Source: Candidatus Moraniibacteriota bacterium
Lineage (GTDB): Bacteria; Patescibacteriota; Minisyncoccia; Moranbacterales; GWC2-37-73
Length of the DNA stretch: 64,000 nt
Reading direction: 5' to 3'
Assembly: GCA_036845785.1 (NCBI GenBank)
Contig: DAIUDF010000002.1
Span: 4,552 to 68,551, forward strand
The stretch's first letter is position 1. The number at the start of each line of letters is the position of its first letter. Below are positions 809 through 41,915 of this stretch, piece by piece. The translations under genes and the position numbers were made by a program. The notes beneath the pieces are model-generated. The model saw only the letters and a program-made list of their open reading frames with translations, ran no database searches and was not told the DNA's origin.

Positions 809-1174
809 ATGACTGAAACAAAAAGCAAAAATAAATATGATCTAGAAGAAAGAACTTCTAAATTTGGAGAGAACACAATATTATTCTGCAGAAAAATACG
901 TCAAGATACGATTACTAAGCCATTAATTTCTCAGTTAGTACGTTCTGCTACAAGTGTCGGAGCAAATTATGTGGAAGCCAATGGCGCAAGTTCGAAAAAA
1001 GATTTTAAAAACAAAATACATATTTGCAAAAAGGAGGCTCAAGAAAGCAAGCACTGGTTTAATATGCTTGCAATTGCTTATCCTGAAAGCATAAATGACG
1101 CAGAAAGATTACAAAAAGAAACGCAAGAACTAATTTTGATTTTTGGAAAAATTATTTCAACATTAAGAAATTAG
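809..1174 (+). CDS. four-helix-bundle protein (23S rRNA intervening-sequence protein family, TIGR02436-like)
   Basis: Family-typical motifs 'SVGANYVEA', 'KKDF', 'ICKKEAQESKHW'; ~120 aa. Confidence 0.6.
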   Translation: MTETKSKNKYDLEERTSKFGENTILFCRKIRQDTITKPLISQLVRSATSVGANYVEANGASSKKDFKNKIHICKKEAQESKHWFNMLAIAYPESINDAERLQKETQELILIFGKIISTLRN

Positions 1175-5052: not shown

Positions 5053-5841
5053 ATGAGATATGTATTAATATTATTAATATCACTTTTTATTTTTGTCTTG
5101 GAATTTTCGTATTCACAAGCTTTTAGTTTGGGGATAATTACGGATATTCATGCTGGCGGTTCAAAAGATGTTGAAAGATCGGAGAAAAACATTATGTACC
5201 CAAGTCGATATTGCATCAATCTCGAGAGAATAAAAAAATCAGGGGTTGATTATATATTGTCTTTAGGGGATAACACTTTGAATGGGAAAGAATCAGAAGC
5301 CAAGAAGGCGCTAAAATGCATGAAGGGTTATGACGTTTTATGGGTGAAGGGAAACCATGACAAAGAAGTTGCCTGGCAATTTTTTAGAACTCCCAATTAT
5401 TACAGCAAGCAAATTGAAAATTGGAAGATAATAGTTTTGGATTCTTCAAAAATTGATCCCAGTAGTTCAGGCGGTTTTCGAGATGATCAGCTAGAATGGC
5501 TGAAAAAAGAGTTAAATGAAAATGATTCAAATGATATTGAAAATATATTTATAGCGATGCATCACAATGTTTTTGAAAAATTTGCCCTTTTTCCCAGTCC
5601 CGGATTCCTCAACATTCTTTTTCCTCAATTTTCCGAACCGATCCAGCTGGAACGGATAAATCTTGTATATAAAAAATTTATAGAAATAATAGAATCAAAC
5701 AATAAAGTCAGGTATGTCTATTCCGGGCACCTTCATTTGAATAATAGGTGTCTCCAGATGGGTAACATAGAATATTGTTCTGTTCCGTCTGTTTCTACGA
5801 TGAATTACGAAGGCTACTTCAAGGAGCTGTCATTAGAATAA
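5053..5841 (+). CDS. secreted calcineurin-like metallophosphoesterase
   Basis: Signal peptide, then 'DIHAGG', 'GDN', 'GNHD' and 'GHLH' metallophosphatase motifs. Confidence 0.65.
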   Translation: MRYVLILLISLFIFVLEFSYSQAFSLGIITDIHAGGSKDVERSEKNIMYPSRYCINLERIKKSGVDYILSLGDNTLNGKESEAKKALKCMKGYDVLWVKGNHDKEVAWQFFRTPNYYSKQIENWKIIVLDSSKIDPSSSGGFRDDQLEWLKKELNENDSNDIENIFIAMHHNVFEKFALFPSPGFLNILFPQFSEPIQLERINLVYKKFIEIIESNNKVRYVYSGHLHLNNRCLQMGNIEYCSVPSVSTMNYEGYFKELSLE

Positions 5842-8740: not shown

Positions 8741-9673
8741 ATGCTAAATATTAAAAAATGGCTTAAATTTATTTTGAAATTAATTGTCAGTCTGGCTTTT
8801 GTTGCTTGGCTTATTTTTAAGGTTGATTGGCAGGAAGTTCTTTTTTATTTTGAAAAAATTTCGCTTTGGCAAACTCTCTTGTATATAGCAGTGGTTATCC
8901 TGAGTATTACGGTGTCTTCTTATAAATGGAAAATTTTAGTCGAATTTAAAAAATTCAATGTGCCACTTGAAAAAGCTTTTCAATTGTATCTGGCCGGAAT
9001 TTTTATCAATAATTTCATGCCGTCTTTCATTGGCGGAGATACTTACAAAGCCTATCAGCTAGGTAAAGAAAAGAAAGAATATGTTTCAGCTGCTACTAGC
9101 GTTGTTATGGATAGAATAACCGGGCTTTTGGGAGCTATGTTACTCTCAGTTTTTTTTGCTCTTTTTAACTGGGGCGTTGTTTCAAAATACCAAGTTTTGA
9201 TTATTATTTTAGGTATAATAATTGCGTCTTTGGTGGCCGTAATTATTTTATTAATCGCAGCCAGGCTTTCTTTTTGGGAAAAAATTTCCAAATATATACC
9301 GGAAAAAGTGCTTAGAATCATTAGAGACTTGCTGCATTATGTGAGCGATAGAAAAATGATGTTCAAAATATTGGTTTTGTCGCTGATTTTTAACTTTATT
9401 GGTCTGGCGGTTGCCAACTATGTTTTGTTTTGGGGCTTGGGAATAGAAATTGATATGCTAAACTATTTGACAGTTATATTTTTAATCAGCATCGTTTCTT
9501 CAATTCCGATTAGCATAAATAACATAGGCATTAAAGAATGGGCCTACGTTACATTTTTTGGTTTTTTCGGAGTGGCTTCTTCGGGAGTGGTGGCGGTGGC
9601 ACTTCTTAGCCGGGTGATCCAAATGGTTATCAGTTTCGCAGCAGTTCCGTTTTATTTGAAAAACAAAAAATGA
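8741..9673 (+). CDS. flippase-like / lysylphosphatidylglycerol-synthase-TM-domain family membrane protein (TIGR00374-like)
   Basis: ~8 TM helices and a 'SFIGGDTYKAYQLGK' loop. Strong SD (AAGGAGA) before the ATG. Confidence 0.45.
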   Translation: MLNIKKWLKFILKLIVSLAFVAWLIFKVDWQEVLFYFEKISLWQTLLYIAVVILSITVSSYKWKILVEFKKFNVPLEKAFQLYLAGIFINNFMPSFIGGDTYKAYQLGKEKKEYVSAATSVVMDRITGLLGAMLLSVFFALFNWGVVSKYQVLIIILGIIIASLVAVIILLIAARLSFWEKISKYIPEKVLRIIRDLLHYVSDRKMMFKILVLSLIFNFIGLAVANYVLFWGLGIEIDMLNYLTVIFLISIVSSIPISINNIGIKEWAYVTFFGFFGVASSGVVAVALLSRVIQMVISFAAVPFYLKNKK

Positions 9674-16884: not shown

Positions 16885-18414
16885 TTATGCTGCTGGTTCG
16901 TTGCCGGAAAGTTCTTCCTGAATTTCAACTTTCCTTTTCTTTTTAGCAATTATATGTTTGATATATTCCAGATCGTTCTTAGTGATTTCGCCCAAAACAT
17001 ATAAGATTAGCAGATATCCGGCAAATAGTATTACTGACCAAGCTATGAAAATAAATTCTCCTTTGGAAAAAAAGAGTGAAGCAGTAAACATCAGTCCGCC
17101 GGAAAAAATTATTTTCAGCAGGCTTTTAAGTTCGAGAATAACTCCGAAATCGCGTCTGACGTAGTGCAGGATTGCCAGCATAACCACAAAAGAAGTGATT
17201 GTGGTGGCGATTGCCGAACCGGCAATGCCATATTTATTGATCAGAATATAATTCAGAATTGTGTTGACAATGACTCCGAAAATGGAAATAAACATTGGAA
17301 TCTTGGTTTTGCCGGCGCCGTTCAAAACAAAACTCATGACATAAAAAATTGTCAGAAAACCGACGCCGTAGGCTAGAATTGACATCGGGAAAGCGGCGGC
17401 TAAATATTTGTGTCCGTAAAAAATTTGGATAATCGGTTCGGCAAATTGCGACATCAAAATTACCGAGGGCACCAGCAGGATCGTCATCAGCCGCATTGAT
17501 TGGCTGATAATTTTGTTGGTTTCGTCATGATTTTTTTCCGCCGTAGTTTTGGAAACGACAGGCAGCAGCATGATGGTCAGGGCGTAGAAAATATAGTAGG
17601 GAATGCGGCCGACAGTCAAAGCGCCATTATAGACTCCGGTTAAATAATCGTCATGCAAAATACCTTTGACCAAATATAAATCGATGCTGATTAAAAGTTC
17701 ATAAGCCAGAAAAAACAGGATAATCTGCCAGGCGTAGTTTATGAGTTTTTTGGTCTCAAATTGGCTCTCAAGGGCCAAATTTTGCGTTTTGGCGGCTTTT
17801 TTAAGCTCCTTGGTGTACTTGAGCTGGTCAAGCGCAAAAGCGATTAAAAAGACCAGAAATGCGGCCAAGGCATAACCCACGATCGAGCCTGGAACACGGA
17901 AAGCATAGGCCAGGCCGACAATGGCCGCTACCTTGAAAACAGAGCGCAGTGTCTTTAAAACTGACTGGACATTGAATTTGTGGAGGCCGGTGTAGAAAGA
18001 AAAGTAGAATGAGGCCATGGCAAAAGCCGGAATGATCAAAGTTGAAATTCTGAAAAGGGGAGTGAGACTTGGGTCGCCCAAAACATGGGAGATGAGAGGG
18101 GCTGAAAGAAAAAATATAATTGTAATTGCACCGATTAAAATCGTTTGCAAAACAATTGTTTTCTTTTTGATGGCCAGCACCAAGCGCGGGTTGGCTTCAA
18201 AAATCTCGCTGATATATTTGGCCATGGCGGTTGGGATGCCGTTGCCGATGAGAATGATGACCATGGTAGTCAAGGTCACAACTAGGCCATATCTGCCGTA
18301 ATCGGCAGGACCCAAAATCCTGCCCACCAAAGAGTGGATTACATAGCCGGAAAGATTGAAAATTATTTCCGAAACGACGAGCCAAAAAGTTGATCTAGCT
18401 AGGTTGGTTGACAT
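16885..18414 (-). CDS. polysaccharide biosynthesis / oligosaccharide flippase (Wzx, MOP superfamily)
   Basis: 509 aa with ~14 TM helices and the typical Polysacc_synt N-terminus 'ARSTFWLVVSEIIFNLSGYVIHSLVGRILGPADYG'. Confidence 0.6.
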   Translation of the reverse strand: MSTNLARSTFWLVVSEIIFNLSGYVIHSLVGRILGPADYGRYGLVVTLTTMVIILIGNGIPTAMAKYISEIFEANPRLVLAIKKKTIVLQTILIGAITIIFFLSAPLISHVLGDPSLTPLFRISTLIIPAFAMASFYFSFYTGLHKFNVQSVLKTLRSVFKVAAIVGLAYAFRVPGSIVGYALAAFLVFLIAFALDQLKYTKELKKAAKTQNLALESQFETKKLINYAWQIILFFLAYELLISIDLYLVKGILHDDYLTGVYNGALTVGRIPYYIFYALTIMLLPVVSKTTAEKNHDETNKIISQSMRLMTILLVPSVILMSQFAEPIIQIFYGHKYLAAAFPMSILAYGVGFLTIFYVMSFVLNGAGKTKIPMFISIFGVIVNTILNYILINKYGIAGSAIATTITSFVVMLAILHYVRRDFGVILELKSLLKIIFSGGLMFTASLFFSKGEFIFIAWSVILFAGYLLILYVLGEITKNDLEYIKHIIAKKKRKVEIQEELSGNEPAA

Positions 18415-18843: not shown

Positions 18844-19176
18844 ATGTCGTTGTTTAAAAACATGAATCTGGAAAAGAGGAAGCTTCTTTTGGAAATTGCC
18901 AAAGAAGCAGAGGAAGAAACCCGCGAGCTTTTAGCGCATTTTAATAGCAAGGAACTCAGAGAAAGATGCCCTGACAGTACTGAAAGATTGAAAGCAAGCT
19001 GTCCCGAAAAGTTTATGGGAGGACCCATTTTTACAATGCGTTCCGCTCTCAAACTCAGAAAGGATGTCCTCACGGTTATTTTAAGAGGCTTTCTTAATGG
19101 AAAACACGACGATGAGGCTAAATTGCTGGATGAAAAATTATGCGCAGGAGTGAGAGGGCTTCTTGCCAGTCATTGA
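18844..19176 (+). CDS. hypothetical protein
   Basis: AAGGAGG SD 8 nt upstream; 110 aa; no recognisable domain. Confidence 0.4.
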   Translation: MSLFKNMNLEKRKLLLEIAKEAEEETRELLAHFNSKELRERCPDSTERLKASCPEKFMGGPIFTMRSALKLRKDVLTVILRGFLNGKHDDEAKLLDEKLCAGVRGLLASH

Positions 19177-19184
19177 TTTTTTAG

Positions 19185-19235
19185 CAAAATTCGCAAAAAC
19201 GCTTTCGGGTTTATAAAACCGGAAGCGCTTTTTTC
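19185..19235. terminator. bidirectional hairpin terminator overlapping the 3' end of 19211..19813
   Basis: GCGCTTTCGGGTTT ... AACCGGAAGCGC imperfect stem with T-runs on both sides. Confidence 0.35.
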
Positions 19236-19813
19236 ATTTCCTCAAAAATTTCTTCTTTATTTCTATTACCGTCAATGATTTTTAAATTCCAAACTGATGC
19301 CGCAGTGTCGTAGAGTTCTTTTTTCTTTTGCAAATAGGCAAGACCCTGATCAGGCTTTCTTTCTCTTCGCATAATAACTTCCGGATCAGCCTGAAGATAG
19401 GCAGCAACATCCGGCAAGGGTATTTTTTTTATCATGTCGCTATTGATAGATGACTTTCGGAAATTATCGGTTTTGCCTTGCAAATAAAGTAAATTTATCA
19501 GGTTATCATAAAAATATCTGTCGCTGATGAGATATTCAAAGCCATCTCTCTCTAATTTTTTTAAAAGCTTCTTGAATCTTAACAGATCGATGGGCAAAAA
19601 AATTCCTCGCAAAAATATCTGAAAAGAGTTTGCTTTCGTGACGCTCTTAGCCATTCCGCTTTTATTTTTTTTAAAAATCCGGTTAGCTAAACCGAAATGA
19701 ACAGCATGAAAATAAAAAACTTTCTTGCTCTGCGATTCAAGGTAATCTATAAGAAGTTTTATCTGGGTTGATTTTCCGGATCCATCCAGGCCGGAAATGG
19801 TAATGATTTTCAT
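19211..19813 (-). CDS. thymidylate-kinase-like P-loop nucleotide kinase
   Basis: P-loop 'ISGLDGSGKSTQ' and a 'DRY' motif (LISDRYFYD) as in dTMP kinases, but no REPGG motif, so possibly a divergent Tmk or another (d)NMP/substrate kinase. Confidence 0.45.
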   Translation of the reverse strand: MKIITISGLDGSGKSTQIKLLIDYLESQSKKVFYFHAVHFGLANRIFKKNKSGMAKSVTKANSFQIFLRGIFLPIDLLRFKKLLKKLERDGFEYLISDRYFYDNLINLLYLQGKTDNFRKSSINSDMIKKIPLPDVAAYLQADPEVIMRRERKPDQGLAYLQKKKELYDTAASVWNLKIIDGNRNKEEIFEEMKKALPVL

Positions 19814-19818
19814 ATAAA

Positions 19819-20910
19819 TTATTTTTTTACATTGATAGTCGTATACTTTCCATTCGTCAGATAATTTAAATTGACATCCACTCTGCCTTCTTTGACATTA
19901 ATAATGCCAAAAGCTCCTGGGTATTTTGGATTTTTATAAACTCCGGGGAGAGAAAAATATTGAACCCCGTCATCCTTTTCATAGTAAAGATTCTCGATGT
20001 GTCCGCTAAAAACGGCTAAAACATCATGTTTAGCAAAGATTTTTCTAAGTTCATCGGCATTGTCAAGAAAATTGAATTTTGATTCAAAACCAACATCTAG
20101 AAGGGGGGTATGGTGAATAAAAATGATAGTTTTTTTCTTTGTGTTTTTTAATTCTTTTTCTAGCCATCTGAGTTCTTCACTTGAAACATGACCGCGAGTA
20201 TAACCGTTTCCGTTAGTCACATTTTTATCTTTAGATGTGAAGTTGCTGTCTAAAATTATTATTTTATAATTCCTTAATTCGAATGATTTTCTGAGATAAT
20301 TTATGCCTAAAGCATTTTGCCATTGTTGTTTTGTAACCGAACGCAAATCATGGTTGCCTAAAACCCAATATTTTTGTATTTTTGATAAATTAAAAATATT
20401 TTTAACCAATTGCAGTTGTTTCAGGCCCGTATTGGCCGGTATTTTTGTTCCTTCAATAACATCGCCGTTTATTAAGATGAAATCAGGGACAATTTCATTA
20501 TTCATTTTTTTAACAAAATGATAAATTCTATTTGTAAACGGCCCAGCAAGCGTATTGGTTGAAGAGCCGTTAAATACATGCAGATCGGTAATAAAACCAA
20601 TCGCTAATTCGTCAGAACTTCTTGCAATGGGAACATAGTCGGGCAACTGGGAAGACAAATCCGTCTCATTTTCATCTGTCTTTGCGTCGGTTTTTGTTTC
20701 CTCAGTTTCTTCTTGCGCGGCAAGTTCTTCCATATCATTTTCAAGAATCTTAGACGCTTTCGCTGTCATATTTTCTGCTACTGGATTATAAGTAGCGCTT
20801 TTTTGCAAAGCATCAATATAACTTCTCATGTTTAAAAAAACAAAAAAAGCCATAAACGCAATTGCTATAAAAAAAATAGACAAATAAATAAGATTATTTT
20901 TTTTCTGCAT
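19819..20910 (-). CDS. membrane-anchored calcineurin-like metallophosphoesterase
   Basis: N-terminal TM anchor and acidic linker, then 'DLHVFNGS', 'GDVIEG', 'GNHD', 'GHIEN' metallophosphatase motifs. 5-nt gaps to both neighbours indicate an operon. Confidence 0.6.
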   Translation of the reverse strand: MQKKNNLIYLSIFFIAIAFMAFFVFLNMRSYIDALQKSATYNPVAENMTAKASKILENDMEELAAQEETEETKTDAKTDENETDLSSQLPDYVPIARSSDELAIGFITDLHVFNGSSTNTLAGPFTNRIYHFVKKMNNEIVPDFILINGDVIEGTKIPANTGLKQLQLVKNIFNLSKIQKYWVLGNHDLRSVTKQQWQNALGINYLRKSFELRNYKIIILDSNFTSKDKNVTNGNGYTRGHVSSEELRWLEKELKNTKKKTIIFIHHTPLLDVGFESKFNFLDNADELRKIFAKHDVLAVFSGHIENLYYEKDDGVQYFSLPGVYKNPKYPGAFGIINVKEGRVDVNLNYLTNGKYTTINVKK

Positions 20911-20915
20911 ATTTA

Positions 20916-23546
20916 TTAGTACATCAAAACCGCGACCGGTTCCATTTTGGCCACAACATTGATTATATTGTTTTCTTCCAAACCGCTTATAACTTTTTCT
21001 ACATCTTTATAATACGAACTATCCTGCAAAATCACGCCTTTGGAGGCAGCGTTATATAATTTCACCTTGCTTTGCTGCATTTTTTGGAAGAGTTCTTTTT
21101 TGTTCTTGGCGGCATTTTCTTGGTGGTGTTTGCGGCGTCCGGTGCCATGCGGAGCTGAAAAAAATGTTGATTCATTGTTGTCCGTGCCAACACCGATGTA
21201 GGCAGCAGTGCTCATGGAAGAGGGAATAAAGACCGGTTCGCCGGTTTCTTTGAAAAGCGGATGATCTTGCATGCGGGCGGGTCCGAAGGCGCGCACACTG
21301 CCGTTCCGGTGCACCCACACATTCTGGCCGAAATGATTTTCTTTTTCGATAGAAATATGGGTTGTGTCATACAGAAGATCAAGTTCGACTTGCTTACCGA
21401 AAACTTTTTCCAAAGCATTGTCTAAATGATGGGTTATAACAATTCTGTTGGCAAACCCAAAATTGGCAGCAGCACGATGTGCGTTCCAAAACATCCGTCC
21501 TTCCATAGAATCATCTTCGTAACCGAAAAATTCCTCCTTGTTTTTATAAGCTTCAATTTTTTTGGCCAAGCGCTGATAAACTTTTTTCATCTGGCTGCCG
21601 AAAAAAGTGGTGCCGATTTTCAAAACAATCTGCTGGCTCAGGTGTTCTTTCTTTTTGGGGGTGTACATATAGGAAGCATATTGGCCCATTAGGCCGCTGC
21701 CGGTGTGGATCAAAAAAACATACTGGCCGGTTTTGAGGCCGAATTTTTCAGCAATTTCCGGATTTTTAATTTCCGATATTTTCATGAGATCCAGAAAATG
21801 ATTGCCGGCTGCGCCTAAAATTCCCAGGCGGTAGCTGCCAATTTTTATGAAAAGTTCCGGCACAGAATCCAGAATGTCGCGGCAGCCAGCTGCTTCATCC
21901 CGGAAAAAATTTCCATTGGCAAAAGCGTTTGTAATTTCGTTTTTTGTGCGGATCTTGAAATGATCTAGCAAAGGAGCAGCGCCCGCAAAACATATATTCA
22001 AGGCTGTGCGGTAGGGCACCGGAGTGCCTATGTATTTTTTAGTCGGAACGACTTTAACTAATTCCTGAAAAAGCCGGTCAATACTTTCTGAAGTAACTTC
22101 ATTGTCAAACAAATTAGTTTTGACAAGCCTCATGCCGCAGTTGGGAGCAGTGTCGTTGATTTGCGGCAAGAAAAATTTTTCAGTTGCGACCACGCTGCCG
22201 GTGGGAACTTTGCGTCCTTTTTTGGAATGGACATCGCTCATTTCGGCGACGTGATGGAAAAGGCGCTGGTCTCCCGCCAAGGATTCAATTTCAGAAAGCG
22301 TTTTATCACTGGGCAACAAATCATCAGAAACATGCAAAACGGCCGGAATTTTCATTTTTTCGGTTCGGAGTTCTTTTTTATTGGCGCTCAGGGAATTGAG
22401 TTTATAGGCGGATTCCATAATATTATCTTTCAAAAATTTGTTATAAATATTTTTGTATTGTTCGGCCACATTTTTAATGTCAAAATTGTTCTGCACGAAC
22501 TCGCGGGCGTTTTTGCCAAGGGCAGTTCTTTTTTCCGGATTACTATAGAGATCTAAAATAGCTTCATTTAATTTTTGCACGCTGCCTTTTTCGATTCTAA
22601 CAGAGTTTTCTTCTTTTGCGAACTCCCGAAGAAGCGGCAAATCGGAAATGATGACCGGTTTTTCACAAGCCATAGCTTCAATGACAGCCAAGGGCACATC
22701 AAATTTTCCCTGCATGTTTTTGACCGGAAAAATGCTGATGTCAGCCATATTGTAAAGTTCAAAGACATCATAGAGCCCGTCATCATGAAAGGCTACACGA
22801 TTTAACAGATTATTTTGTTTGAAAATTTCAAAAACTTCTTTTTTCTTGGCTGCATCTTTCTTGTTTTTTATTCTGACAGCCAGAGAAAGCTTGGCTTCCG
22901 GAATCAACTTGGCAATTTCCAGAAAACTTTGCACCACAGTATCCATGGCATCGTTCCGGATATACTCGCCGGTGAAATTGATGATAAAATCACGGGGAGC
23001 AAAAGAATATTTTTGAAGATACTCCGGATTTTTGCCGGTGTTTTTATAAATATCAAGGTCGATGCCGGGATAGATCCTTTCCACATTGCGAAAACCCATT
23101 GCCAGCAGCTTTTTTTTGGTGTAATCGGAATAGGTTATAAGCATGTCTCCAAAAAGCATTTTCTTGATTTCGGCTTCGGAAAAAAGGTCTTCTCGCAAAG
23201 TGGCGATTGTTTGGATTGTATGAAAACGGTCTTTTTTATTTTTAATGAAATTTTTAACCAGGAATGAATTTTGCTTGGTCGGCGTGAAGAGAAAATGCAA
23301 AATGTTGAATTCTTTTTTGAAAGTTCTAAGTTTCAATATTAGCCGGACTTTTTGCCACCAGGAAAAATCGCTTTGAGTATAAATCGGTTTTTGAAGGACA
23401 GAGTCTGGCATATAGGAAAGTTCGCCTTTGGTTAAGAGGCCGATTTTAAAATCAGAAATATTTTTAGCCAGAAAAAAGGCAAAGTTTTTCGAGCCTTCAT
23501 CCCAAGGGGGAGTGATAGGGCGAGTAACAAGTAGGATTTTCTTCAT
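20916..23546 (-). CDS. fusion protein: N-terminal GT4 glycosyltransferase domain + C-terminal RtcB-like RNA-ligase domain
   Basis: Residues ~1-400 are GT4 ('FDVPLAVIEAMACEKPVIISD'). Residues ~400-886 carry RtcB hallmarks in order: 'MSDVHSKKG..PTGSV', 'NCGMRL', 'HTGSGLMGQ', 'FGFANR', 'HRNGS', 'IPSSMSTAAY', 'HGTGRR'. Single uninterrupted 886-aa frame. The track start at 23576 is TTG; the ATG at 23546 is likely. Confidence 0.55.
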   Translation of the reverse strand: MKKILLVTRPITPPWDEGSKNFAFFLAKNISDFKIGLLTKGELSYMPDSVLQKPIYTQSDFSWWQKVRLILKLRTFKKEFNILHFLFTPTKQNSFLVKNFIKNKKDRFHTIQTIATLREDLFSEAEIKKMLFGDMLITYSDYTKKKLLAMGFRNVERIYPGIDLDIYKNTGKNPEYLQKYSFAPRDFIINFTGEYIRNDAMDTVVQSFLEIAKLIPEAKLSLAVRIKNKKDAAKKKEVFEIFKQNNLLNRVAFHDDGLYDVFELYNMADISIFPVKNMQGKFDVPLAVIEAMACEKPVIISDLPLLREFAKEENSVRIEKGSVQKLNEAILDLYSNPEKRTALGKNAREFVQNNFDIKNVAEQYKNIYNKFLKDNIMESAYKLNSLSANKKELRTEKMKIPAVLHVSDDLLPSDKTLSEIESLAGDQRLFHHVAEMSDVHSKKGRKVPTGSVVATEKFFLPQINDTAPNCGMRLVKTNLFDNEVTSESIDRLFQELVKVVPTKKYIGTPVPYRTALNICFAGAAPLLDHFKIRTKNEITNAFANGNFFRDEAAGCRDILDSVPELFIKIGSYRLGILGAAGNHFLDLMKISEIKNPEIAEKFGLKTGQYVFLIHTGSGLMGQYASYMYTPKKKEHLSQQIVLKIGTTFFGSQMKKVYQRLAKKIEAYKNKEEFFGYEDDSMEGRMFWNAHRAAANFGFANRIVITHHLDNALEKVFGKQVELDLLYDTTHISIEKENHFGQNVWVHRNGSVRAFGPARMQDHPLFKETGEPVFIPSSMSTAAYIGVGTDNNESTFFSAPHGTGRRKHHQENAAKNKKELFQKMQQSKVKLYNAASKGVILQDSSYYKDVEKVISGLEENNIINVVAKMEPVAVLMY

Positions 23547-23682
23547 AATATTCAGAAAATAATTTTTAATTTCCAATTTTTAATTTTTAATCAATTTCCA
23601 ATGTTTTAGTTTAAAAATCAAATTGCTGGCGTGCTTTTTTTGGCTTATATTAGGTATTATTTATGATTTTATGTTTAAAGCA

Positions 23683-23711
23683 TTGACAAATTTTTTTAGA
23701 TATGCTACAAT
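23683..23711 (+). promoter_or_regulatory. perfect-consensus sigma70 promoter (TTGACA-17 bp-TACAAT) with no downstream ORF
   Basis: TTGACA 23683-23688, 17-bp spacer, TACAAT 23706-23711. Confidence 0.6.
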
Positions 23712-23717
23712 ATACAC

Positions 23718-23890
23718 TTGAAAGTGATGGTGTGTGTTCTTTAAAAGAGTTTAAGGATTTTTTCTCACACCACAAAAATATAAAGGTGGTCTACCGAAGA
23801 ATGCGGGAGTAGCGTGTTGGATACAGCATAACACGTGAAGCATGTCAAAGGAGATTAGAAAAATCCCACATCATCATTTTCTTTTTTATT
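23718..23890 (+). ncRNA. candidate small structured RNA (~170 nt; 6S-like or unknown)
   Basis: No ORF on either strand. The 5' segment GAAAGUGAUGGUGUG pairs (two G-U wobbles) with the 3' segment CACAUCAUCAUUUUC, which is immediately followed by a U-run. Internal hairpins are also present. Confidence 0.35.
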
Positions 23891-24004: not shown

Positions 24005-24367
24005 TTACAAATTCTTATATATCTCTTTTTTATTATCGCCGGCAGTTACTGTTATGGTAATTTTTCTATCGGAGAAATCCACAGTATCTTTTGGAACAGG
24101 AACGGTTTTTGTCTCACCCGATGGAACAGACAAATTGCTTTCTATGACTACTTTTTTATCAATCAATATTTCATAACGGAAATCGGAATTTTTACTGTGA
24201 TTTTCAACGGCAAAGTCCAGTGAATCGCTTTTGGGATCAGTAAAATACAGCATCCAGACATTGCTGTTGTCGAGGTTGGTATTTCTGGATTCAACAATAG
24301 TCAAAAAAACAAAACTTAGAAATAAAAAGAATATTGTTGAGAAAATTATTAATTTATCGGTTTTCAT
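24005..24367 (-). CDS. small exported or membrane-anchored hypothetical protein
   Basis: N-terminal hydrophobic segment; 120 aa. Confidence 0.4.
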   Translation of the reverse strand: MKTDKLIIFSTIFFLFLSFVFLTIVESRNTNLDNSNVWMLYFTDPKSDSLDFAVENHSKNSDFRYEILIDKKVVIESNLSVPSGETKTVPVPKDTVDFSDRKITITVTAGDNKKEIYKNL

Positions 24368-24477: not shown

Positions 24478-26400
24478 TTAGCTGGACTTATAAAATACTC
24501 CAACTTCGTCTCCTGCATAAATCTGCCAGAAATTGCCAAGTCTTTGGAACTGTGAGCTGTCGATTTTTGGATTGAGCATAATAAAATTTGTCTTTGTTCC
24601 TGTAAAACATTTTTGAGCTTCCGGGCTGCTGGGGAGTGAAATCATCTTATTTGTGCATTGCTCGCGCGGCTTGGTTTCATCCTCGTAGCGTTTGAAATAA
24701 CCCCGAGAGAGCGGATAGTTATAGCCGCGCATAAAGAACAATTTTATCCAGGAATCTCCGGAAAGATAGTTGTGATCCTTGAGAACAATATCGCTCTCGG
24801 ACAAATGCTGAGCCAAATATTTTGAAGCCGCATAGGTTTGAATGGATTTTCCGGCACTGCTGTCAAAGTCGAGCGACTGCGAATTGTCACGCAATCCGTC
24901 CGCCGCAATGAAAATCATGAATGTAAAAAATAAAAGCAAGACGAAGAACGGTTTTATATAATTTTTATTTCTTTCTTCAGCTTTCAATAGAGCAAAGAGG
25001 CGGACAAGCGCATAGGCTGCCACAATAGCAACGGGGAAAACCACATAGCTGGCAATTCTGGTTGAGGGAATGTCAATAAAAAGCAAATCTGGTTTTAGTG
25101 ACATTAAAACCAGGATACCCAGCCATCCCAACAAAAACGCCTGATTGTATTTTCCGATTTTGCGCGCAAAGAAAAGCAAAATAAATCCTAAAAAGGCAAA
25201 AGCAAAGCGGGCTTCTCCGGCAGTGGTTTTGAGCTGCGTCAATGTAATGCCGGCGCGGGAAGCTTTGCTGGGCGTGCCGACGGCCGTATCAATAGCCGAT
25301 GAATTAAGATAAGTCGGAACGCATATAAAAAATATGAAAGCCGCGCCCAGAATTATAATTGAAATTACTGAAGGAGAAAGAAACATTTTCAGCCACTCCT
25401 TCGCTTCGAATTTTATGGTTCGGAAATTTAAAACAATAAAAAATATGAGAGCAAAGATAGCTGCGAAAATAAACACAAAAGTGCTGAGATGATGCGTGTA
25501 GACGAGTCCTAGGGTTGTGAAAATAGCCAAAGAAAGCAAATACGCTTTCTTTTTTGAGAAGGCTTTGATGTAAAAAAGCATGGCTAATGGAATAAAAAGA
25601 TTGCCAATAGCGTTGCCGATAACGCCGCCGCTCACGAATTTTGCCTGCGGGGAAGCCAAAGCATAGAGCGGTCCAATAAGGAAAAGAGCCATGATAGCAA
25701 TCATGTCTTGGCGCTTTGCTCCCCCAAAAATTTCACGAGTTAAAATAAAAATTGCTAAAATCGACATTATTTGAATAAGAAAAAGGACTAATGATGGAAA
25801 TGAAGAAATAAAATCCTGACCAGAAATAAGAGCAATAGCAGCAAAGATTAAGTGTTCTCCAATTATGAAATCGGCAATTGGCGCAGGACTTTCAATTGTA
25901 TAGTCACTGCCGATGTCAGCTTTTTCGTAGACAGGCAAATGGCCGGTGGTTGTGATTACTTTTGACCAATACATATGATGTCCAAGGTCAGTCGAAGTTG
26001 GCGGAATTGTATCCTGAAAGTAGATAGTTTTAATAAAAATTGTCAGAAAAAGCAGAATTAATACCAAAACGACTGATTTTTTGGAAAATTCTTCCTGTTG
26101 GGGCTCTGCCTGAATTTTTTCTTTGGATTTAAAGTAAAAATAGATTGCAGAACAAATTAAGGAAAAAATGATTATGGCTGCCAAAATTGACAAAGAAGTT
26201 ATTTTAATTCCGGTTTTACCCAGAATTATTATCAAAAAATCAGAAACAACTATGCTCAATCCGAGGGATATTATAAAAATCTCCAAAGCAGAAAAATGAT
26301 TTTTCCTTCTCGTCGCCAAAAGCAGAAAATAACCGGGAACAAAAAGAACCAGTGCAATGGCGATGTAAAATAATAGTTGTGATGTTATGAATTGAAACAT
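24478..26400 (-). CDS. large polytopic membrane protein, putative GT-C-like glycosyltransferase
   Basis: 640 aa with >12 TM helices, extracytoplasmic loops and a C-terminal soluble domain. In an operon with the GtrB-like GT2 and a GT4. Confidence 0.35.
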   Translation of the reverse strand: MFQFITSQLLFYIAIALVLFVPGYFLLLATRRKNHFSALEIFIISLGLSIVVSDFLIIILGKTGIKITSLSILAAIIIFSLICSAIYFYFKSKEKIQAEPQQEEFSKKSVVLVLILLFLTIFIKTIYFQDTIPPTSTDLGHHMYWSKVITTTGHLPVYEKADIGSDYTIESPAPIADFIIGEHLIFAAIALISGQDFISSFPSLVLFLIQIMSILAIFILTREIFGGAKRQDMIAIMALFLIGPLYALASPQAKFVSGGVIGNAIGNLFIPLAMLFYIKAFSKKKAYLLSLAIFTTLGLVYTHHLSTFVFIFAAIFALIFFIVLNFRTIKFEAKEWLKMFLSPSVISIIILGAAFIFFICVPTYLNSSAIDTAVGTPSKASRAGITLTQLKTTAGEARFAFAFLGFILLFFARKIGKYNQAFLLGWLGILVLMSLKPDLLFIDIPSTRIASYVVFPVAIVAAYALVRLFALLKAEERNKNYIKPFFVLLLFFTFMIFIAADGLRDNSQSLDFDSSAGKSIQTYAASKYLAQHLSESDIVLKDHNYLSGDSWIKLFFMRGYNYPLSRGYFKRYEDETKPREQCTNKMISLPSSPEAQKCFTGTKTNFIMLNPKIDSSQFQRLGNFWQIYAGDEVGVFYKSS

Positions 26401-26475: not shown

Positions 26476-27600
26476 TTATTTCGAATTCGATATTTGGCCT
26501 TTATTTGACATTGGGAATTTGTCATTTGTCATTACAGCTTTTATTTCTTCCAAATATCTTTGCGAAATATGTTCCCAACTGTAATTGTCAATTATGAATT
26601 GGCGTGTTTTTTCTCCAAAAATTTCCCGTGGACTGCCTACTGCAAAAAGTTCGTTTATTTTTGAAACATATGCATTAGCATTACCGGATTCAACCAAGAA
26701 ACCATTTTGCCCGTCCTTGATTGCGTCTTTTAGCCCTTCCAGAGATGAAGCCAAGACAGGCAAACGGCAAGCACCGGCCTCAATGACAGAAATTCCAAAG
26801 CCCTCCATATCTCCGGGAATTTTGATATTCGGCTGGACAAAAAGATCAGCCGTATTAAGTAGAGCATTTCTGACTGAATCAGTGATATAGCCAAGCACGT
26901 GCACCCGGCTGTATAAATTATTTTTTTTGATCATATCAAAAATATTCTGTTTGTCCGGACCATCTCCGGCGATTATATAGATAAAATCGCTGTCCAATTT
27001 TGGCATGACATTATCAATAAACCAGGCCACACCTTTTCTTTTGGCCAAGCGTCCGGAAGTGAGCAGAATTTTTTTGCCAGCCACTGTTTGTTTGATGATT
27101 TTTTCCAGATTTTCACGGCAAGAATCAACCAGATGTTTTTCAGTATCAACGCCATTGGGAATAAAAACAATCTTATTTTCCGAAATTCCTTTTTCTTTGG
27201 CAGTTTTTATGGTCTCATTGCCAACAGCAATAAATTTGTCAATTTTTTTCATAAAAATTCCTACCCATATTTTTTGATAGATAGGATTTTTCCAAGTCAG
27301 ATCCAAACCGTGAGCAATTGCTACAACTGGTTTTTTGCTGCCAAAAAGTTTTAGCCTCCAGGCGACATTAGCCAAGATGCAACTGCCCAAAACAACCACA
27401 TCATATTTTCGAGACGATAAAACAGCGCGGATAGTGGTGTACGCCAAAAAAAATGGAATCAGCCATCTTTTTTTGTTAGCGATCAATTTCACTTCCGTTT
27501 GTTTAGAAAGCCACGTTGAAAGCTCAAAATTGTGCGTTTCAACCCCGCCCACAATTGGTGGAAATGTGTGGGAAATAAACAAAATTCTTGGTTTGTCCAT
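26476..27600 (-). CDS. glycosyltransferase family 4
   Basis: 'ISVIEAGACRLPVLASSLEGLKDAIKDGQNGFLV' and the N-terminal 'ILFISHTFPPIVGGVE'. Confidence 0.7.
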   Translation of the reverse strand: MDKPRILFISHTFPPIVGGVETHNFELSTWLSKQTEVKLIANKKRWLIPFFLAYTTIRAVLSSRKYDVVVLGSCILANVAWRLKLFGSKKPVVAIAHGLDLTWKNPIYQKIWVGIFMKKIDKFIAVGNETIKTAKEKGISENKIVFIPNGVDTEKHLVDSCRENLEKIIKQTVAGKKILLTSGRLAKRKGVAWFIDNVMPKLDSDFIYIIAGDGPDKQNIFDMIKKNNLYSRVHVLGYITDSVRNALLNTADLFVQPNIKIPGDMEGFGISVIEAGACRLPVLASSLEGLKDAIKDGQNGFLVESGNANAYVSKINELFAVGSPREIFGEKTRQFIIDNYSWEHISQRYLEEIKAVMTNDKFPMSNKGQISNSK

Positions 27601-41375: not shown

Positions 41376-41915
41376 ATGCAAAAAAAGAAGATATTTATTG
41401 AAATAGCTGTCCCGCAACAGATTAAAAAGCGGATAATGCAAAAGATTGCTCCTTGGGCTGATTTACCAATCAAGTGGGTCAAAGAAGAAAGTCTTCATAT
41501 AACCGTGTCTTTTGTTGGCTATGTCGATGAGAGCGTTGTGCCTGACATTTGTTTCAAGGTTAAAGAAACTGTGGCTAAAATTGAATCTTTTGAAATTACT
41601 TTTGATCGCATCGGGCTTGCTCCGGATGCTGAAAATCCAAAATCAATTGCTCTCATTGGAAAACCATTGAAAGAGTTGGGAGAATTGAATGAGAAAATTG
41701 AAGAAGCGTTAGATATGTATCCGCAAAAACATAAACAATTCTCTCCACATGTGACTTTGGGTAGAATCAAAAAACTAAAATGGGATGAACTTTCCAAGAA
41801 ACCGCTTATTGAAGAAAAATGCAATATTGGCATGACAGCGGAAGCGGTTTTGGTGATGGAAAGCCGTGGCGGAGAAGGATCATATTCTGTTTTGGAACAA
41901 TGCAACTTAGTTTAG
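41376..41915 (+). CDS. thpR: RNA 2',3'-cyclic phosphodiesterase / 2'-5' RNA ligase (2H phosphoesterase)
   Basis: Two H-x-T/S-x motifs, 'HITVSF' and 'HVTLGR'; 179 aa. Confidence 0.7.
   Translation: MQKKKIFIEIAVPQQIKKRIMQKIAPWADLPIKWVKEESLHITVSFVGYVDESVVPDICFKVKETVAKIESFEITFDRIGLAPDAENPKSIALIGKPLKELGELNEKIEEALDMYPQKHKQFSPHVTLGRIKKLKWDELSKKPLIEEKCNIGMTAEAVLVMESRGGEGSYSVLEQCNLV

What the first reader, a model, noticed from the sequence alone, without database searches (positions are those of the whole stretch)
19211..23576. Tight three-gene operon: GT4-RtcB fusion, membrane-anchored calcineurin-like phosphoesterase, P-loop (Tmk-like) kinase
Intergenic gaps of 5 nt (20910/20916 and 19813/19819) indicate co-translation. 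A kinase, a calcineurin-type phosphatase and a ligase are the same three activities found in Pnkp-type RNA healing-and-sealing enzymes. Here they sit on separate proteins and use an RtcB-type ligase, not an ATP-dependent one. The phosphoesterase has an N-terminal TM anchor and an acidic linker, so it is probably extracytoplasmic, which argues against a purely cytoplasmic RNA-repair role. The kinase could equally be a genuine thymidylate kinase, since it has a DRY motif. The combination is unusual, and a 2H RNA phosphoesterase (thpR, 41376-41915) is also present elsewhere in the window.
Basis: inference. Interest (0 to 1): 0.55.

Follow-up and report, generated by a model that had tools for sequence, protein, structure and literature searches.

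The report
RtcB-like ligase in glycan gene block
In this tiny-genome (Moranbacteria) bacterium, an enzyme that looks like an RNA-joining ligase and a thymidylate-kinase-like kinase are fixed parts of a cell-envelope sugar-polymer gene block, not of an RNA-repair kit. Its "fusion" to a sugar transferase comes from one extra T that removed a stop codon.

Summary
The three minus-strand ORFs, their 5-nt gaps and their domain assignments are all confirmed. The interpretation needs changing.

- **Fusion:** the GT4-RtcB fusion occurs only in this sequence. All 131 other distinct relatives have separate genes. Here a run of five T (22436-22432) reads TTT TTG A; with four T it would read TTT TGA, a stop exactly where relatives end.
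- **Phosphoesterase:** it lies between RtcB and the kinase only in the closest relatives (RtcB at least 88% identical). It is membrane-anchored with an external Rv0805/GpdQ-like domain.
- **Conserved unit:** the unit is GT4 | RtcB-like | Tmk-like | MOP flippase, inside a block GT4-DUF6541-small protein-GT4-RtcB-TmkL-flippase. GT4 is adjacent upstream in 92 of 102 loci and TmkL downstream in 82 of 116. Relatives down to 33% identity still sit beside glycan genes.
- **RtcB-like clade:** it keeps the metal ligands and the histidine nucleophile. It lacks both guanine-specific contacts (Glu206 is Asp, Lys480 is absent) and the 5'-OH-strand arginines (Arg238, Arg190).

A split Pnkp-like RNA healing-and-sealing system is not supported. 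My best reading, inferred and untested, is that a repurposed RtcB-like nucleotidyl/phosphodiester-forming enzyme works with GT4 and an NMP-type kinase in envelope glycoconjugate synthesis.

The parts
22419..23546 (-). GT4 glycosyltransferase 'GT4(b)'. It is the N-terminal part of the fused ORF 20916-23576; its probable start is the ATG at 23546.
   Evidence: Pfam Glycos_transf_1 E 1e-16. It is a separate 371-381 aa gene in every relative. It lies adjacent upstream of RtcB in 92 of 102 informative loci.
22431..22436 (-). Fusion junction: a T5 run (22436-22432) followed by G. It reads TTT TTG A where TTT TGA (a stop) would end GT4 at ...NKF*.
   Evidence: Sequence. Relatives end ...AKL-TAA or ...NKL-TAG, 3-6 nt before the RtcB ATG. 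L009, with 92% identical RtcB, has a spacer of about 90 nt containing stops.
20916..22418 (-). RtcB-like protein (500 aa from its own ATG at 22418), a member of a non-canonical RtcB clade.
   Evidence: PF01139 E 5e-72. Relatives are stand-alone 498-aa proteins at 51-92% identity.
19819..20910 (-). Membrane-anchored metallophosphoesterase: TM helix, acidic disordered linker, then an Rv0805/GpdQ-like domain. It is an accessory insertion at this position.
   Evidence: It is found between RtcB and TmkL only in L001-L004 and L008-L010/L089. More distant orthologues lie elsewhere.
19211..19813 (-). Tmk-like P-loop kinase (TmkL), a distinct family with a thymidylate-kinase fold.
   Evidence: It lies adjacent downstream of RtcB in 82 of 116 informative loci, plus 10 with an insertion.
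18844..19176 (+). Conserved 110-aa gene on the opposite strand, between TmkL and the flippase. It ends the transcription unit in this lineage.
   Evidence: 82% identical to the gene at L003 4962-5288.
16885..18414 (-). MOP-family flippase (Wzx/SpoVB/MurJ-like), the last member of the conserved block.
   Evidence: Pfam and NCBIfam matches. It follows TmkL in most loci, often with overlapping stop and start.
24005..24367 (-). Small single-TM protein ('s120'), a member of the conserved block.
24478..26400 (-). DUF6541/DUF1616 polytopic membrane protein, a member of the conserved block.
26476..27600 (-). GT4 glycosyltransferase 'GT4(a)', the first member of the conserved block.
8741..9673 (+). LPG_synthase_TM (PF03706) membrane protein. 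In more distant lineages this family lies immediately upstream of the RtcB-like gene.
   Evidence: L095, L096/L097 and L098; L142 and L144.
5053..5841 (+). Second, shorter metallophosphoesterase with an N-terminal TM segment, next to a PMT_2 GT-C. It is a distant paralogue of the 19819-20910 gene.
   Evidence: The same pairing occurs in L005/L006.

Best explanation
**Shown**
- The locus lies in the middle of a conserved envelope-glycoconjugate gene block of Moranbacteria (Patescibacteria): GT4(a) - DUF6541 - small TM protein - GT4(b) - RtcB-like - Tmk-like kinase - MOP flippase.
- GT4(b) and RtcB-like are normally separate, often overlapping, genes. Here the GT4 stop is lost and the two are read as one ORF. 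RtcB keeps its own ATG in an A/T-rich context like that of other genes in this genome, which has almost no Shine-Dalgarno motifs.
- The metallophosphoesterase is a roaming, membrane-anchored phosphodiesterase with an external catalytic domain. It landed between RtcB-like and TmkL only in this sub-lineage.

**Inferred**
- The simplest route to the stop loss is one extra T in a T-run.
- The RtcB-like protein is not a classical GTP-dependent RNA 3'-P/5'-OH ligase. It keeps the two-metal site and the histidine that carries the nucleotide. It has lost both guanine-reading residues and the arginines that hold the 5'-OH RNA strand. Across clades down to 33% identity it stays next to glycosyltransferases.
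- I therefore propose that it uses RtcB chemistry on a glycan or lipid intermediate. That chemistry is NMP transfer from histidine onto a phosphomonoester, then optionally attack by a hydroxyl to give a phosphodiester and release NMP.
- On this reading GT4(b) acts on the same intermediate. TmkL would act as a nucleotide-type kinase, either recycling the released NMP or making the phosphomonoester.
- All three would act in the cytoplasm before export by the flippase. The ecto-phosphoesterase would act later, outside the cell.
For: **Anatomy**
- Domains and coordinates.
- The surrounding roughly 40 kb is a glycan island with PMT_2 x5, GT4, GT2, UDP-glucose dehydrogenase x2, Wzy_C, LCP and WecG.
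- The fusion is unique. One search finds only P0001 at 886 aa. In one search, 1 of 132 distinct loci is fused, and that locus is identical to the window.
- Junction and T5 run.

**Synteny**
- 80 GTDB species representatives and 56 metagenome loci were analysed.
- GT4(b) is adjacent upstream in 92 of 102 loci. TmkL is adjacent downstream in 82 of 116, plus 10 with an insertion.
- Background: 0 of 269 ORFs downstream of the flippase hit the GT4 model.

**Association survives rearrangement**
- L094 (RtcB 40% identical) keeps GT4|RtcB|TmkL with a 3-nt gap and an 8-nt overlap, but has different flanks.
- L095 and L098 (37%) have LPG_synthase_TM|RtcB, and L095 also carries TmkL, a radical-SAM gene and a GT4 alongside; TmkL was not detected in L098.
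- L096, L097, L130 and L136 (34%) carry GT4, a methyltransferase, a B12 radical-SAM gene, LPG_synthase_TM|RtcB|a GT-C-like protein|a polysaccharide deacetylase.
- L154 (33%) has RtcB followed by a GT4 after 7 nt.

**Active site**
- Kept: Cys in 125 of 132, YD..H in 126, His404 motif in at least 125.
- Glu206 is Asp in 118 of 132. The C-terminus is [LI]M[YA] instead of ..KG in 116 of 132. HTGSG replaces H(S/T)GSRG in every sequence in which the motif was found (126 of 132). Arg190 is Ile.
- Almost all other RtcB clades examined keep Glu and the C-terminal KG.
- Roles of these residues come from papers: Lys480 and Glu206 read guanine (PMC9745838). Arg238, Arg190 and Gln194 hold the 5'-OH strand, and the equivalent EcoRtcB R189A mutation slows sealing 200-fold (PMC8051266).

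**TmkL**
- All top 50 Foldseek hits are dTMP kinases, with TM about 0.7.
- It falls below the TIGR00041 cut-off, and the region that binds dTMP does not align.

**Phosphoesterase**
-.

**No sign of an RNA system or a defence system**
- There is no Rfam family and no tRNA in the window.
- There is no PADLOC match beyond weak P-loop hits to the kinase.
Against: - No biochemistry exists for any member of this clade. The function is inferred only from context and residue patterns.
- The catalytic core is intact, and Glu to Asp is conservative, so GTP-dependent RNA ligation is not excluded.
- Most loci come from one order-level lineage, so the counts are not independent events. Only seven out-group contexts could be read, some on short contigs. 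One of them (L092) shows a CofD/YvcK-like neighbour rather than a glycosyltransferase.
- Intergenic gaps are variable: the median is 24 nt for GT4|RtcB and 92 nt for RtcB|TmkL.
- The RtcB|TmkL junction tolerates insertions of unrelated genes on the opposite strand. Co-transcription is therefore not obligatory.
- RtcB-like is the most conserved gene of the block, at a median 63% identity. That also fits an essential housekeeping RNA enzyme.
- I could not determine whether these genomes hold a second, canonical RtcB or a canonical tmk.
Confidence: 0.55

Rival explanations
1. This is housekeeping co-location only. The RtcB-like protein is a genuine RNA 3'-P/5'-OH ligase for RNA repair or processing, and TmkL is the organism's divergent dTMP kinase. 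Both simply ride in a long-conserved, constitutively expressed envelope operon, with no shared pathway with the glycosyltransferases.
For: - There is a full-length PF01139 match, and all metal ligands and the His nucleophile are conserved.
- RtcB-like is the most conserved gene of the block.
- TmkL has the Tmk fold, P-loop and DRY motif.
- No canonical tmk was seen in 1.2 Mb of sampled Moranbacteria DNA, although that sample is biased to this locus.
- Junctions are often loose and sometimes interrupted.
Against: - The association with GT4, TmkL and LPG_synthase_TM persists after rearrangement and down to 33-40% identity.
- Both guanine contacts and the 5'-OH-strand arginines are lost specifically in this clade.
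- By general knowledge, bacterial tRNA introns are self-splicing, so bacteria have no known need for a splicing ligase.
- TmkL fails the dTMP-kinase equivalog cut-off, and its acceptor-binding region does not align with Tmk.
Confidence: 0.3
2. The kinase, the calcineurin-type phosphatase and RtcB form a split Pnkp-like RNA healing-and-sealing system.
For: - The three activity classes are encoded next to each other with 5-nt gaps in this window and its nearest relatives.
- A 2H phosphoesterase lies elsewhere in the window.
Against: - The phosphoesterase is absent from this position in almost all relatives, and its distant orthologues are elsewhere.
- It is anchored in the membrane with its catalytic domain predicted outside. 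It resembles Rv0805, GpdQ and purple acid phosphatases, and no Pnkp structure appears in the top 50 hits.
- The kinase fold matches dTMP kinases only.
- By established knowledge, RtcB chemistry needs 3'-P and 5'-OH ends, which a 5' kinase and a 3' phosphatase would remove.
- No Hen1-like methyltransferase and no RNA element lie nearby.
Confidence: 0.04
3. The GT4-RtcB 'fusion' is not biological. A homopolymer miscall (T4 read as T5) in the assembly removed the GT4 stop codon. In the cell the two are separate genes, as in all relatives.
For: - The junction is a T5 run. Removing one T restores TGA exactly at the C-terminus seen in relatives.
- No other lineage is fused.
- The second record is 100% identical over 4226 nt and may derive from the same population or reads.
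Against: - Two assemblies carry it, and one is a MEGAHIT-style k141 contig, which implies short reads with a low homopolymer error rate for T5 (inference).
- The spacer after the run is stop-free and in frame.
- The gene pair is ancient and often overlaps (11 of 46 junctions), so a fusion would be tolerated.
Confidence: 0.25

Closest known systems
RtcB 3'-phosphate/5'-hydroxyl RNA ligase (P. horikoshii, E. coli, human RTCB; Pfam PF01139)
   Same: - It has the same fold family over the full length.
- The Cys, His203, His234 and His329 metal ligands and Asn202 are kept.
- The His404 nucleophile is kept in an HG(T/A)G(R/K) motif.
   Different: - Glu206 is Asp, and the C-terminal ..KG (Lys480) is missing. 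Both are guanine-specific contacts.
- Arg238 (Eco Arg189) and Arg190, which hold the 5'-OH strand, are replaced by Gly and Ile.
- The metal-ligand Asp lies 5 residues before the Cys rather than 3.
- There is an insertion of about 26 residues after the HTGSG motif.
- It scores far below every NCBIfam RtcB equivalog cut-off.
- Its neighbours are glycosyltransferases, a Tmk-like kinase and a flippase, not rtcA/rtcR, archease, PrfH or Ro.
Pnkp/Hen1 bacterial RNA repair (kinase + calcineurin-type phosphatase + ligase)
   Same: The same three broad activity classes are encoded side by side in this window.
   Different: - The proteins are separate.
- The ligase is RtcB-type, which needs no end healing.
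- The kinase has a dTMP-kinase fold.
- The phosphoesterase is membrane-anchored and external.
- There is no Hen1.
- The triad is not conserved.
Thymidylate kinase (Tmk; PF02223 / TIGR00041)
   Same: - The P-loop is G-x-D-G-x-G-K-S-T.
- It has the DRY motif and a LID-like R-x-R-E-R segment.
- The predicted fold has TM about 0.7 to the Tmk enzymes of P. falciparum, T. thermophilus and S. tokodaii.
   Different: - It is 21-24% identical to these enzymes.
- It scores 39.5 bits against a cut-off of 83.25.
- The segment that binds dTMP in Tmk does not align. By my reading of the motifs, it has YFHA and I-x-L-R-K...D-I-x-R-F instead of R-E-P-G-G-T and F-x-A-x-R.
- It is fixed beside RtcB-like and a flippase rather than beside holB.
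Class III phosphodiesterases / GpdQ (Rv0805, E. aerogenes glycerophosphodiesterase)
   Same: - It has a Metallophos fold with the D-x-H, G-D and G-N-H-D motifs and downstream His ligands.
- Its best structural matches are these enzymes (E 1e-14).
   Different: - It has an N-terminal signal-anchor and an acidic disordered linker of about 50 residues.
- The last motif reads G-H-I-E rather than G-H-x-H.
- Its genomic position is variable, and its family is once fused to LPG_synthase_TM (P0333).
CofC/CofD step of coenzyme F420 synthesis. This is a chemical analogy only, from general knowledge.
   Same: The two-step logic matches RtcB steps 2 and 3. A phosphomonoester is guanylylated to X-P-P-G, then a hydroxyl attacks to give a phosphodiester and release GMP. 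A CofD/YvcK-family gene lies directly upstream of one clade member (L092).
   Different: The enzymes are unrelated folds, and no homology is implied. The L092 adjacency is a single short contig.

Membership tests
RtcB RNA ligase | Full-length match to PF01139 above the gathering score | tested here: met
   244 bits against a threshold of 27, covering residues 437-884.
RtcB RNA ligase | Metal ligands Cys98, His203, His234 and His329, plus Asn202 | tested here: met
   Alignments to PhoRtcB. Census: NCGMR in 125 of 132, N-H in 123 of 132, HTGS in 126 of 132, YD..H in 126 of 132.
RtcB RNA ligase | Mn2 ligand Asp95, three residues before the Cys (G-x-D-I-N-C-G) | tested here: inconclusive
   The clade has D-T-A-P-N-C-G, with the Asp five residues before the Cys, in 123 of 132. 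Whether the loop places it equivalently cannot be read from sequence.
RtcB RNA ligase | His404 nucleophile that carries GMP | tested here: met
   HGTG(R/K), HGAG(K/R/V) or HE(I/L)GK in 125 of 132.
RtcB RNA ligase | Guanine-specific contacts Glu206 and Lys480 (PMC9745838) | tested here: not met
   There is Asp at the Glu206 position in 118 of 132. The C-terminus is [LI]M[YA] in 116 of 132, instead of the ..KG found in other clades.
RtcB RNA ligase | 5'-OH-strand contacts Arg238 (Eco Arg189) and Arg190 (PMC8051266) | tested here: not met
   HTGSG(L/I/M) replaces H(S/T)GSRG in all members in which the motif was found. Ile is at the Arg190 position and Arg at the Gln194 position.
RtcB RNA ligase | NCBIfam equivalog score | tested here: not met
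   PRK09588 scores 106.9 against a cut-off of 407, and TIGR03073 scores 70.9 against 271.8.
RtcB RNA ligase | RNA 3'-P/5'-OH sealing activity | not testable with these tools
   This needs an enzyme assay.
Pnkp/Hen1-type healing and sealing | Polynucleotide-kinase-type P-loop kinase | tested here: not met
   All top 50 Foldseek hits of the TmkL model are dTMP kinases.
Pnkp/Hen1-type healing and sealing | Cytoplasmic phosphoesterase acting with the kinase | tested here: not met
   It has a single N-terminal TM segment (94 of 96 family members), an acidic disordered linker, and a catalytic domain predicted outside.
Pnkp/Hen1-type healing and sealing | Conserved co-occurrence of kinase, phosphatase and ligase | tested here: not met
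   The phosphoesterase lies between RtcB and TmkL only in L001-L004, L008-L010 and L089.
Pnkp/Hen1-type healing and sealing | ATP-dependent ligase domain and a Hen1 methyltransferase partner | tested here: not met
   The ligase is RtcB-type. No methyltransferase appears among the neighbours annotated.
dTMP kinase (Tmk) | Pfam PF02223 above the gathering score, with P-loop and DRY motif | tested here: met
   42.3 bits against 27. GLDGSGKST and SDRY are invariant in the family.
dTMP kinase (Tmk) | Equivalog score (TIGR00041) | tested here: not met
   39.5 bits against 83.25. NCBI annotates relatives as hypothetical.
dTMP kinase (Tmk) | Conserved dTMP-binding segment | tested here: inconclusive
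   The profile-to-PDB alignment skips this segment for the T. maritima Tmk (3hjn) and covers it for the P. falciparum enzyme (2yof) without conserving the Tmk motifs. The motif reading rests on my own knowledge of Tmk.
dTMP kinase (Tmk) | Being the genome's only tmk | not testable with these tools
   Whole genomes could not be scanned. No canonical tmk was found in 1.2 Mb of locus-biased DNA.
Calcineurin-like metallophosphoesterase (class III PDE/GpdQ-like) | Metallophos domain with metal-binding motifs | tested here: met
   PF00149 E 3e-18. Invariant residues are D109, H111, G149-D150, G185-N186-H187-D188, H266 and G303-H304. Best folds are Rv0805 and GpdQ.

The most novel reading that the evidence does not exclude
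A whole clade of RtcB-like enzymes has moved from RNA ligation to envelope-glycan chemistry.
- It would load a nucleotide, probably not GTP, on its histidine and transfer it to a phosphomonoester on a sugar or lipid-linked intermediate.
- It would then either stop there, making an NDP-activated donor for the adjacent GT4, or let a hydroxyl attack, making a phosphodiester-linked glycoconjugate.
- The Tmk-like kinase would supply the phosphomonoester or recycle the released NMP.

This would be the first non-nucleic-acid substrate for the RtcB fold, and a new route to phosphodiester-linked or NDP-activated glycans in Patescibacteria.
Probability: 0.35. Interest if true: 0.9.

Novelty: new variant of a known kind. 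Interest (0 to 1): 0.65.

Why it matters
- This work finds a large clade, fixed inside envelope-glycan operons of an entire order-level group of candidate-phyla bacteria. It has lost the guanine-reading and RNA-strand-holding residues while keeping the catalytic core. That points to an unrecognised use of this chemistry, or at least to an RtcB with different nucleotide and substrate rules.
- The idea is directly testable with one recombinant protein.
- It would also bear on how ultra-small, nucleotide-scavenging bacteria build their surface.
- On the cautionary side, the eye-catching "fusion" and the "kinase-phosphatase-ligase triad" are, respectively, a one-base event and a lineage-specific insertion.

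Tried and rejected
- **Independent GT4-RtcB fusions.** I found none. The 885-aa P0412 has an unannotated N-terminal extension that is not GT4, and the other long hits carry inteins.
- **Independent confirmation of the fusion.** The only other record is DNA-identical to the window.
- **dTDP-sugar link for the kinase.** There are no rml genes in the window, and the sugar-nucleotide genes present are UDP-glucose dehydrogenases.
- **Defence-system reading.** PADLOC gives only weak P-loop hits.
- **RNA elements.** There are no Rfam families and no tRNAs in the 64 kb.
- **Literature.** Searches combining RtcB with candidate phyla radiation, Patescibacteria, Parcubacteria, glycosyltransferase or polysaccharide biosynthesis returned nothing relevant. 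The Burroughs and Aravind 2016 survey of RNA-repair contexts is not held, so prior mention there cannot be excluded.
- **Promoter and terminator scan.** It gave nothing decisive inside the unit.

Full report
**Observation.** Three minus-strand ORFs occupy 20916-23576 (886 aa), 19819-20910 (363 aa) and 19211-19813 (200 aa). The junctions read TAA-TAAAT-ATG and TAA-TTTAT-ATG, so both gaps are exactly 5 nt.
- The first ORF has a GT4 C-terminal domain (Glycos_transf_1, residues 185-359, E 1e-16) followed by a full RtcB domain (residues 437-884, E 5e-72).
- The second is a Metallophos protein (E 3e-18).
- The third matches Thymidylate_kin at 42 bits, above Pfam's threshold of 27 but well below NCBI's dTMP-kinase cut-off (39.5 against 83.25).
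- Such small gaps are common in this 89%-coding window. Seven of 41 same-strand pairs have gaps of 10 nt or less, and the median is 43 nt. Tightness alone therefore says little.

**Setting.** The window has about 37% G+C and comes from a Moranbacteria-type Patescibacterium. Every close relative of the three proteins comes from such MAGs. From roughly 1 kb to 42 kb it is an envelope-glycan island. It holds five PMT_2/GT-C genes, several GT4 and GT2 genes, two UDP-glucose dehydrogenases, a Wzy_C/O-antigen-ligase-like protein, an LCP protein, WecG/TagA, an LPG_synthase_TM protein, a MOP flippase and a second metallophosphoesterase. There is no tRNA, no Rfam family and no PADLOC defence match beyond weak P-loop hits to the kinase.

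**The fusion is a one-off.** A search of 5.8 billion proteins returned a single 886-aa protein, identical to the query. Every other relative listed, from 88% down to 61% identity, is a stand-alone RtcB of about 500 aa (493-526).
- The one other record of the fusion is a 4226-nt ENA contig that is 100% identical in DNA to window 19507-23732. It is not an independent lineage.
- In relatives, GT4 ends ...NIYAKL-TAA or ...NIYNKL-TAG, 3-6 nt before the RtcB ATG. In the species representative with 92% identical RtcB, a spacer of about 90 nt with several stops separates the two genes.
- In the window the minus strand reads AAC AAA TTT TTG AAA GAT AAT ATT ATG, with a T5 run at 22436-22432. With four T it would read AAC AAA TTT TGA, that is ...NKF-stop at exactly the homologous C-terminus, 11 nt before the ATG.
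- The simplest account is one extra T that both abolishes the stop and puts GT4 in frame with RtcB. This is an inference from the sequence. Whether it is a real variant or a homopolymer miscall needs read-level data.
- Only 4 of 46 genes in the window have a Shine-Dalgarno-like motif, and the RtcB ATG has the usual A/T-rich upstream context. Free RtcB could therefore still be made.
- Across 132 distinct loci examined later, no other stop-to-stop ORF contains both domains.

**What is conserved.** I fetched 80 species-representative loci from GTDB genomes, with RtcB 51-92% identical, and 56 metagenome loci using a profile of more distant members. I then searched their ORFs with HMMs built from the window's proteins.
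- A same-strand block recurs: GT4(a) - DUF6541 - small TM protein - GT4(b) - RtcB-like - TmkL - MOP flippase.
- GT4(b) is adjacent upstream of RtcB in 92 of 102 informative loci.
- TmkL is adjacent downstream in 82 of 116, and in 10 more it follows after an insertion.
- As background, none of 269 ORFs of at least 150 aa downstream of the flippase hits the GT4 model.
- Junctions are overlapping or 10 nt or less in about a quarter to a third of cases, but range up to hundreds of nt.
- Where RtcB and TmkL are separated, the inserts in the six longest cases examined (2.1-6.6 kb) are mostly unrelated genes on the opposite strand, such as Nudix, BRO-like, esterase and integrase genes.
- Median identity to the window is RtcB 63%, flippase 61%, TmkL 52%, GT4(b) 51%, DUF6541 44% and the small protein 38%.

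**The phosphoesterase is not part of that core.** It lies between RtcB and TmkL only in the window, in the contigs carrying the 88%-identical RtcB (L001-L004), and in L009 and L010/L089.
- In the 78%-identical relatives, RtcB is followed directly by TmkL.
- Its orthologues at 40-47% identity lie beside a cation ATPase, or beside Sua5 and an ABC transporter.
- Weaker Metallophos paralogues recur near the block: after the flippase in L141, L142 and L144, next to PMT_2 in L005 and in the window at 5053-5841, and once fused to LPG_synthase_TM (P0333).
- 94 of 96 full-length family members have one N-terminal TM segment.
- The AF2 model (pLDDT 80) shows a long N-terminal helix, a disordered acidic linker (residues 38-86) and a domain whose best structural matches are Rv0805, GpdQ, Lmo2642, purple acid phosphatases and acid sphingomyelinase.
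- It is best described as a membrane-anchored phosphodiesterase with an external catalytic domain. GT4-RtcB and TmkL have no TM segment.

**The kinase.** TmkL forms its own family, with 785 hits that are essentially all from Moranbacteria. JGI calls them thymidylate kinase and NCBI calls them hypothetical.
- Invariant motifs are ISGLDGSGKSTQ, YFHA, SDRYFYD and R-x-R-E-R-x-P-D-Q-G.
- A family profile finds Tmk structures at E about 1e-11. The segment that binds dTMP is skipped in the alignment to the T. maritima enzyme and is aligned to the P. falciparum enzyme without conserved Tmk motifs.
- The AF2 model (pLDDT 85.5) matches only dTMP kinases in the top 50, at TM about 0.7 and 16-25% identity.
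- It is therefore a nucleotide-kinase-fold enzyme with an undetermined acceptor, not a polynucleotide kinase. Whether it is the only tmk-like gene of the genome could not be tested.

**The RtcB-like protein is non-canonical.**
- Alignment to PhoRtcB and a census of 132 sequences show that the Cys, Asn202/His203, His234, His329 and the His404 nucleophile are conserved.
- Glu206 is Asp in 118 of 132, and the protein ends [LI]M[YA] in 116 of 132. Almost all other RtcB clades examined, including E. coli (sequence from memory) and archaeal- and eukaryote-like representatives, keep GNHF-x-E and a C-terminal ..KG.
- Glu206 and Lys480 are the two base-specific contacts to guanine (PMC9745838).
- The clade has HTGSG instead of H(S/T)GSRG, and Ile at the Arg190 position.
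- Arg238 and Arg190 bind the first phosphodiesters of the 5'-OH strand. The equivalent EcoRtcB R189A mutation slows sealing 200-fold (PMC8051266).
- The metal-ligand Asp lies five, not three, residues before the Cys in 123 of 132.
- A sister group (P0347, P0349 and others) has further changes: Asn202 to Ser, and His404 in N-H-E-I-G-K. One member has Tyr in place of the histidine.

**The glycan association reaches far beyond Moranbacteria-level similarity.** An exhaustive HMMER search gave 1958 RtcB-like representatives. A rough NJ tree places the window's clade with P0351, and P0355/P0357 as the neighbouring branch, apart from the canonical enzymes.

| Relative | RtcB identity | Context |
|---|---|---|
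| P0347 | 48% | The full block |
| P0349 | 40% | GT4\|RtcB\|TmkL with a 3-nt gap and an 8-nt overlap; new flanks (sulfotransferase, LPG_synthase_TM, epimerase) |
| P0351 | 37% | LPG_synthase_TM\|RtcB; in L095 also TmkL, a B12 radical-SAM gene and a GT4(b)-type gene next door |
| P0355 | 34% | GT4, methyltransferase, B12 radical-SAM, LPG_synthase_TM\|RtcB\|GT-C-like membrane protein\|polysaccharide deacetylase\|HAD-like, in three contigs plus a divergent fourth |
| P0356 | 33% | RtcB followed after 7 nt by a GT4 |
| P0348 | 45% | CofD/YvcK-family gene upstream, on a 2.9-kb contig |

**Interpretation.** The Pnkp-like healing-and-sealing idea fails on several counts.
- Conservation: the phosphoesterase is not a fixed partner.
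- Topology: the phosphoesterase faces outside the cell.
- Kinase fold: it matches dTMP kinases, not polynucleotide kinases.
- Chemistry (established knowledge): RtcB needs the very ends that a 5' kinase and a 3' phosphatase would remove.

The conserved functional unit is GT4(b) + RtcB-like + TmkL, inside an export-coupled glycan pathway. I think the most likely explanation (about 0.55) is that this clade applies RtcB chemistry to a glycan or lipid phosphomonoester. That chemistry is histidine-NMP formation, transfer to a phosphomonoester, and optionally attack by a hydroxyl to give a phosphodiester. Nucleotide specificity would be altered. TmkL would serve as a nucleotide-type kinase, either recycling the released NMP or making the phosphomonoester. 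This mechanism is inferred and none of it has been shown.

The main rival (about 0.3) is that RtcB-like is still an RNA ligase and TmkL a divergent dTMP kinase, both carried in a long-lived operon. The intact catalytic core, the high conservation and the loose or interrupted junctions are compatible with that view.

**Novelty and limits.** I found no description of this association in the searchable literature. The key comparative survey of RNA-repair neighbourhoods is not held. Most loci come from one lineage, so the counts are not independent events. The out-group evidence rests on seven look-ups. I rate the finding a new variant of a known kind. If the glycan function were proven, it would be a categorically new use of the RtcB fold.

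Noticed in passing
window 41376-41915 (+) and 41936-42637 (+): A LigT/ThpR 2H phosphoesterase lies 20 nt upstream of a WecG/TagA-family glycosyltransferase. This is a second 'RNA-type' phosphoesterase directly beside a glycan gene.
   Followed up: no
window 5053-5841 (+), next to 5857-7491: A second, shorter metallophosphoesterase with an N-terminal TM segment (29% identical to the 19819-20910 protein) lies 15 nt upstream of a PMT_2 GT-C. The same pairing occurs in L005/L006 at 15388-16344.
   Followed up: partly
P0333 (protein): A 629-aa natural fusion of this metallophosphoesterase family with an LPG_synthase_TM (PF03706) membrane domain. It ties the phosphoesterase to the membrane and lipid side of the cluster.
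   Followed up: no
L092 298-1302 (+), upstream of RtcB-like at 1328-2827: A CofD/YvcK-family gene (E 4e-80) lies directly upstream of a 45%-identical RtcB-like gene. By general knowledge, CofD chemistry transfers a phospho-group from a GDP-activated donor and releases GMP, which mirrors RtcB step 3. This is a single short contig.
   Followed up: no
P0347, P0349, P0350, P0353, P0354, P0352: A sister group of RtcB-like proteins has Asn202 to Ser, Glu206 to Ser/Thr, and the nucleophile motif changed to N-H-E-(I/L)-G-K. P0352 has Tyr instead of the histidine and lacks the N-H pair, so it may be inactive. At least two members (P0347, P0349) still keep the GT4|RtcB|TmkL context.
   Followed up: partly
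L011, L016, L038, L044, L064, L069 between RtcB and TmkL: The RtcB|TmkL junction is a hot spot for insertions of 2-6.5 kb, mostly of opposite-strand genes (Nudix hydrolases, a BRO-like protein, an esterase), plus a plus-strand tyrosine integrase in L069.
   Followed up: partly
window 809-1174 (+); L002 2388-2753, L003 144-509, L089 3838-4203: Small 23S_rRNA_IVP-family four-helix proteins occur in the window. In close relatives they are inserted between the small TM protein and GT4(b) of the block.
   Followed up: no
window 18844-19176 (+): A 110-aa ORF on the opposite strand between TmkL and the flippase is a real conserved gene (82% identical in L003). It has no family match and contains several Cys in a CP-x-x pattern.
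   Followed up: partly
whole window: Only 4 of 46 genes have a Shine-Dalgarno-like motif. Starts are preceded by A/T-rich sequence, suggesting SD-independent initiation in this organism.
   Followed up: partly
P0412: An 885-aa RtcB-like protein whose 430-aa N-terminal half matches no Pfam family. It is the same length class as the window's fusion but is not GT4.
   Followed up: partly
window 161-679 (+): A CYTH-domain (triphosphate tunnel metalloenzyme) protein lies at the edge of the glycan island.
   Followed up: no
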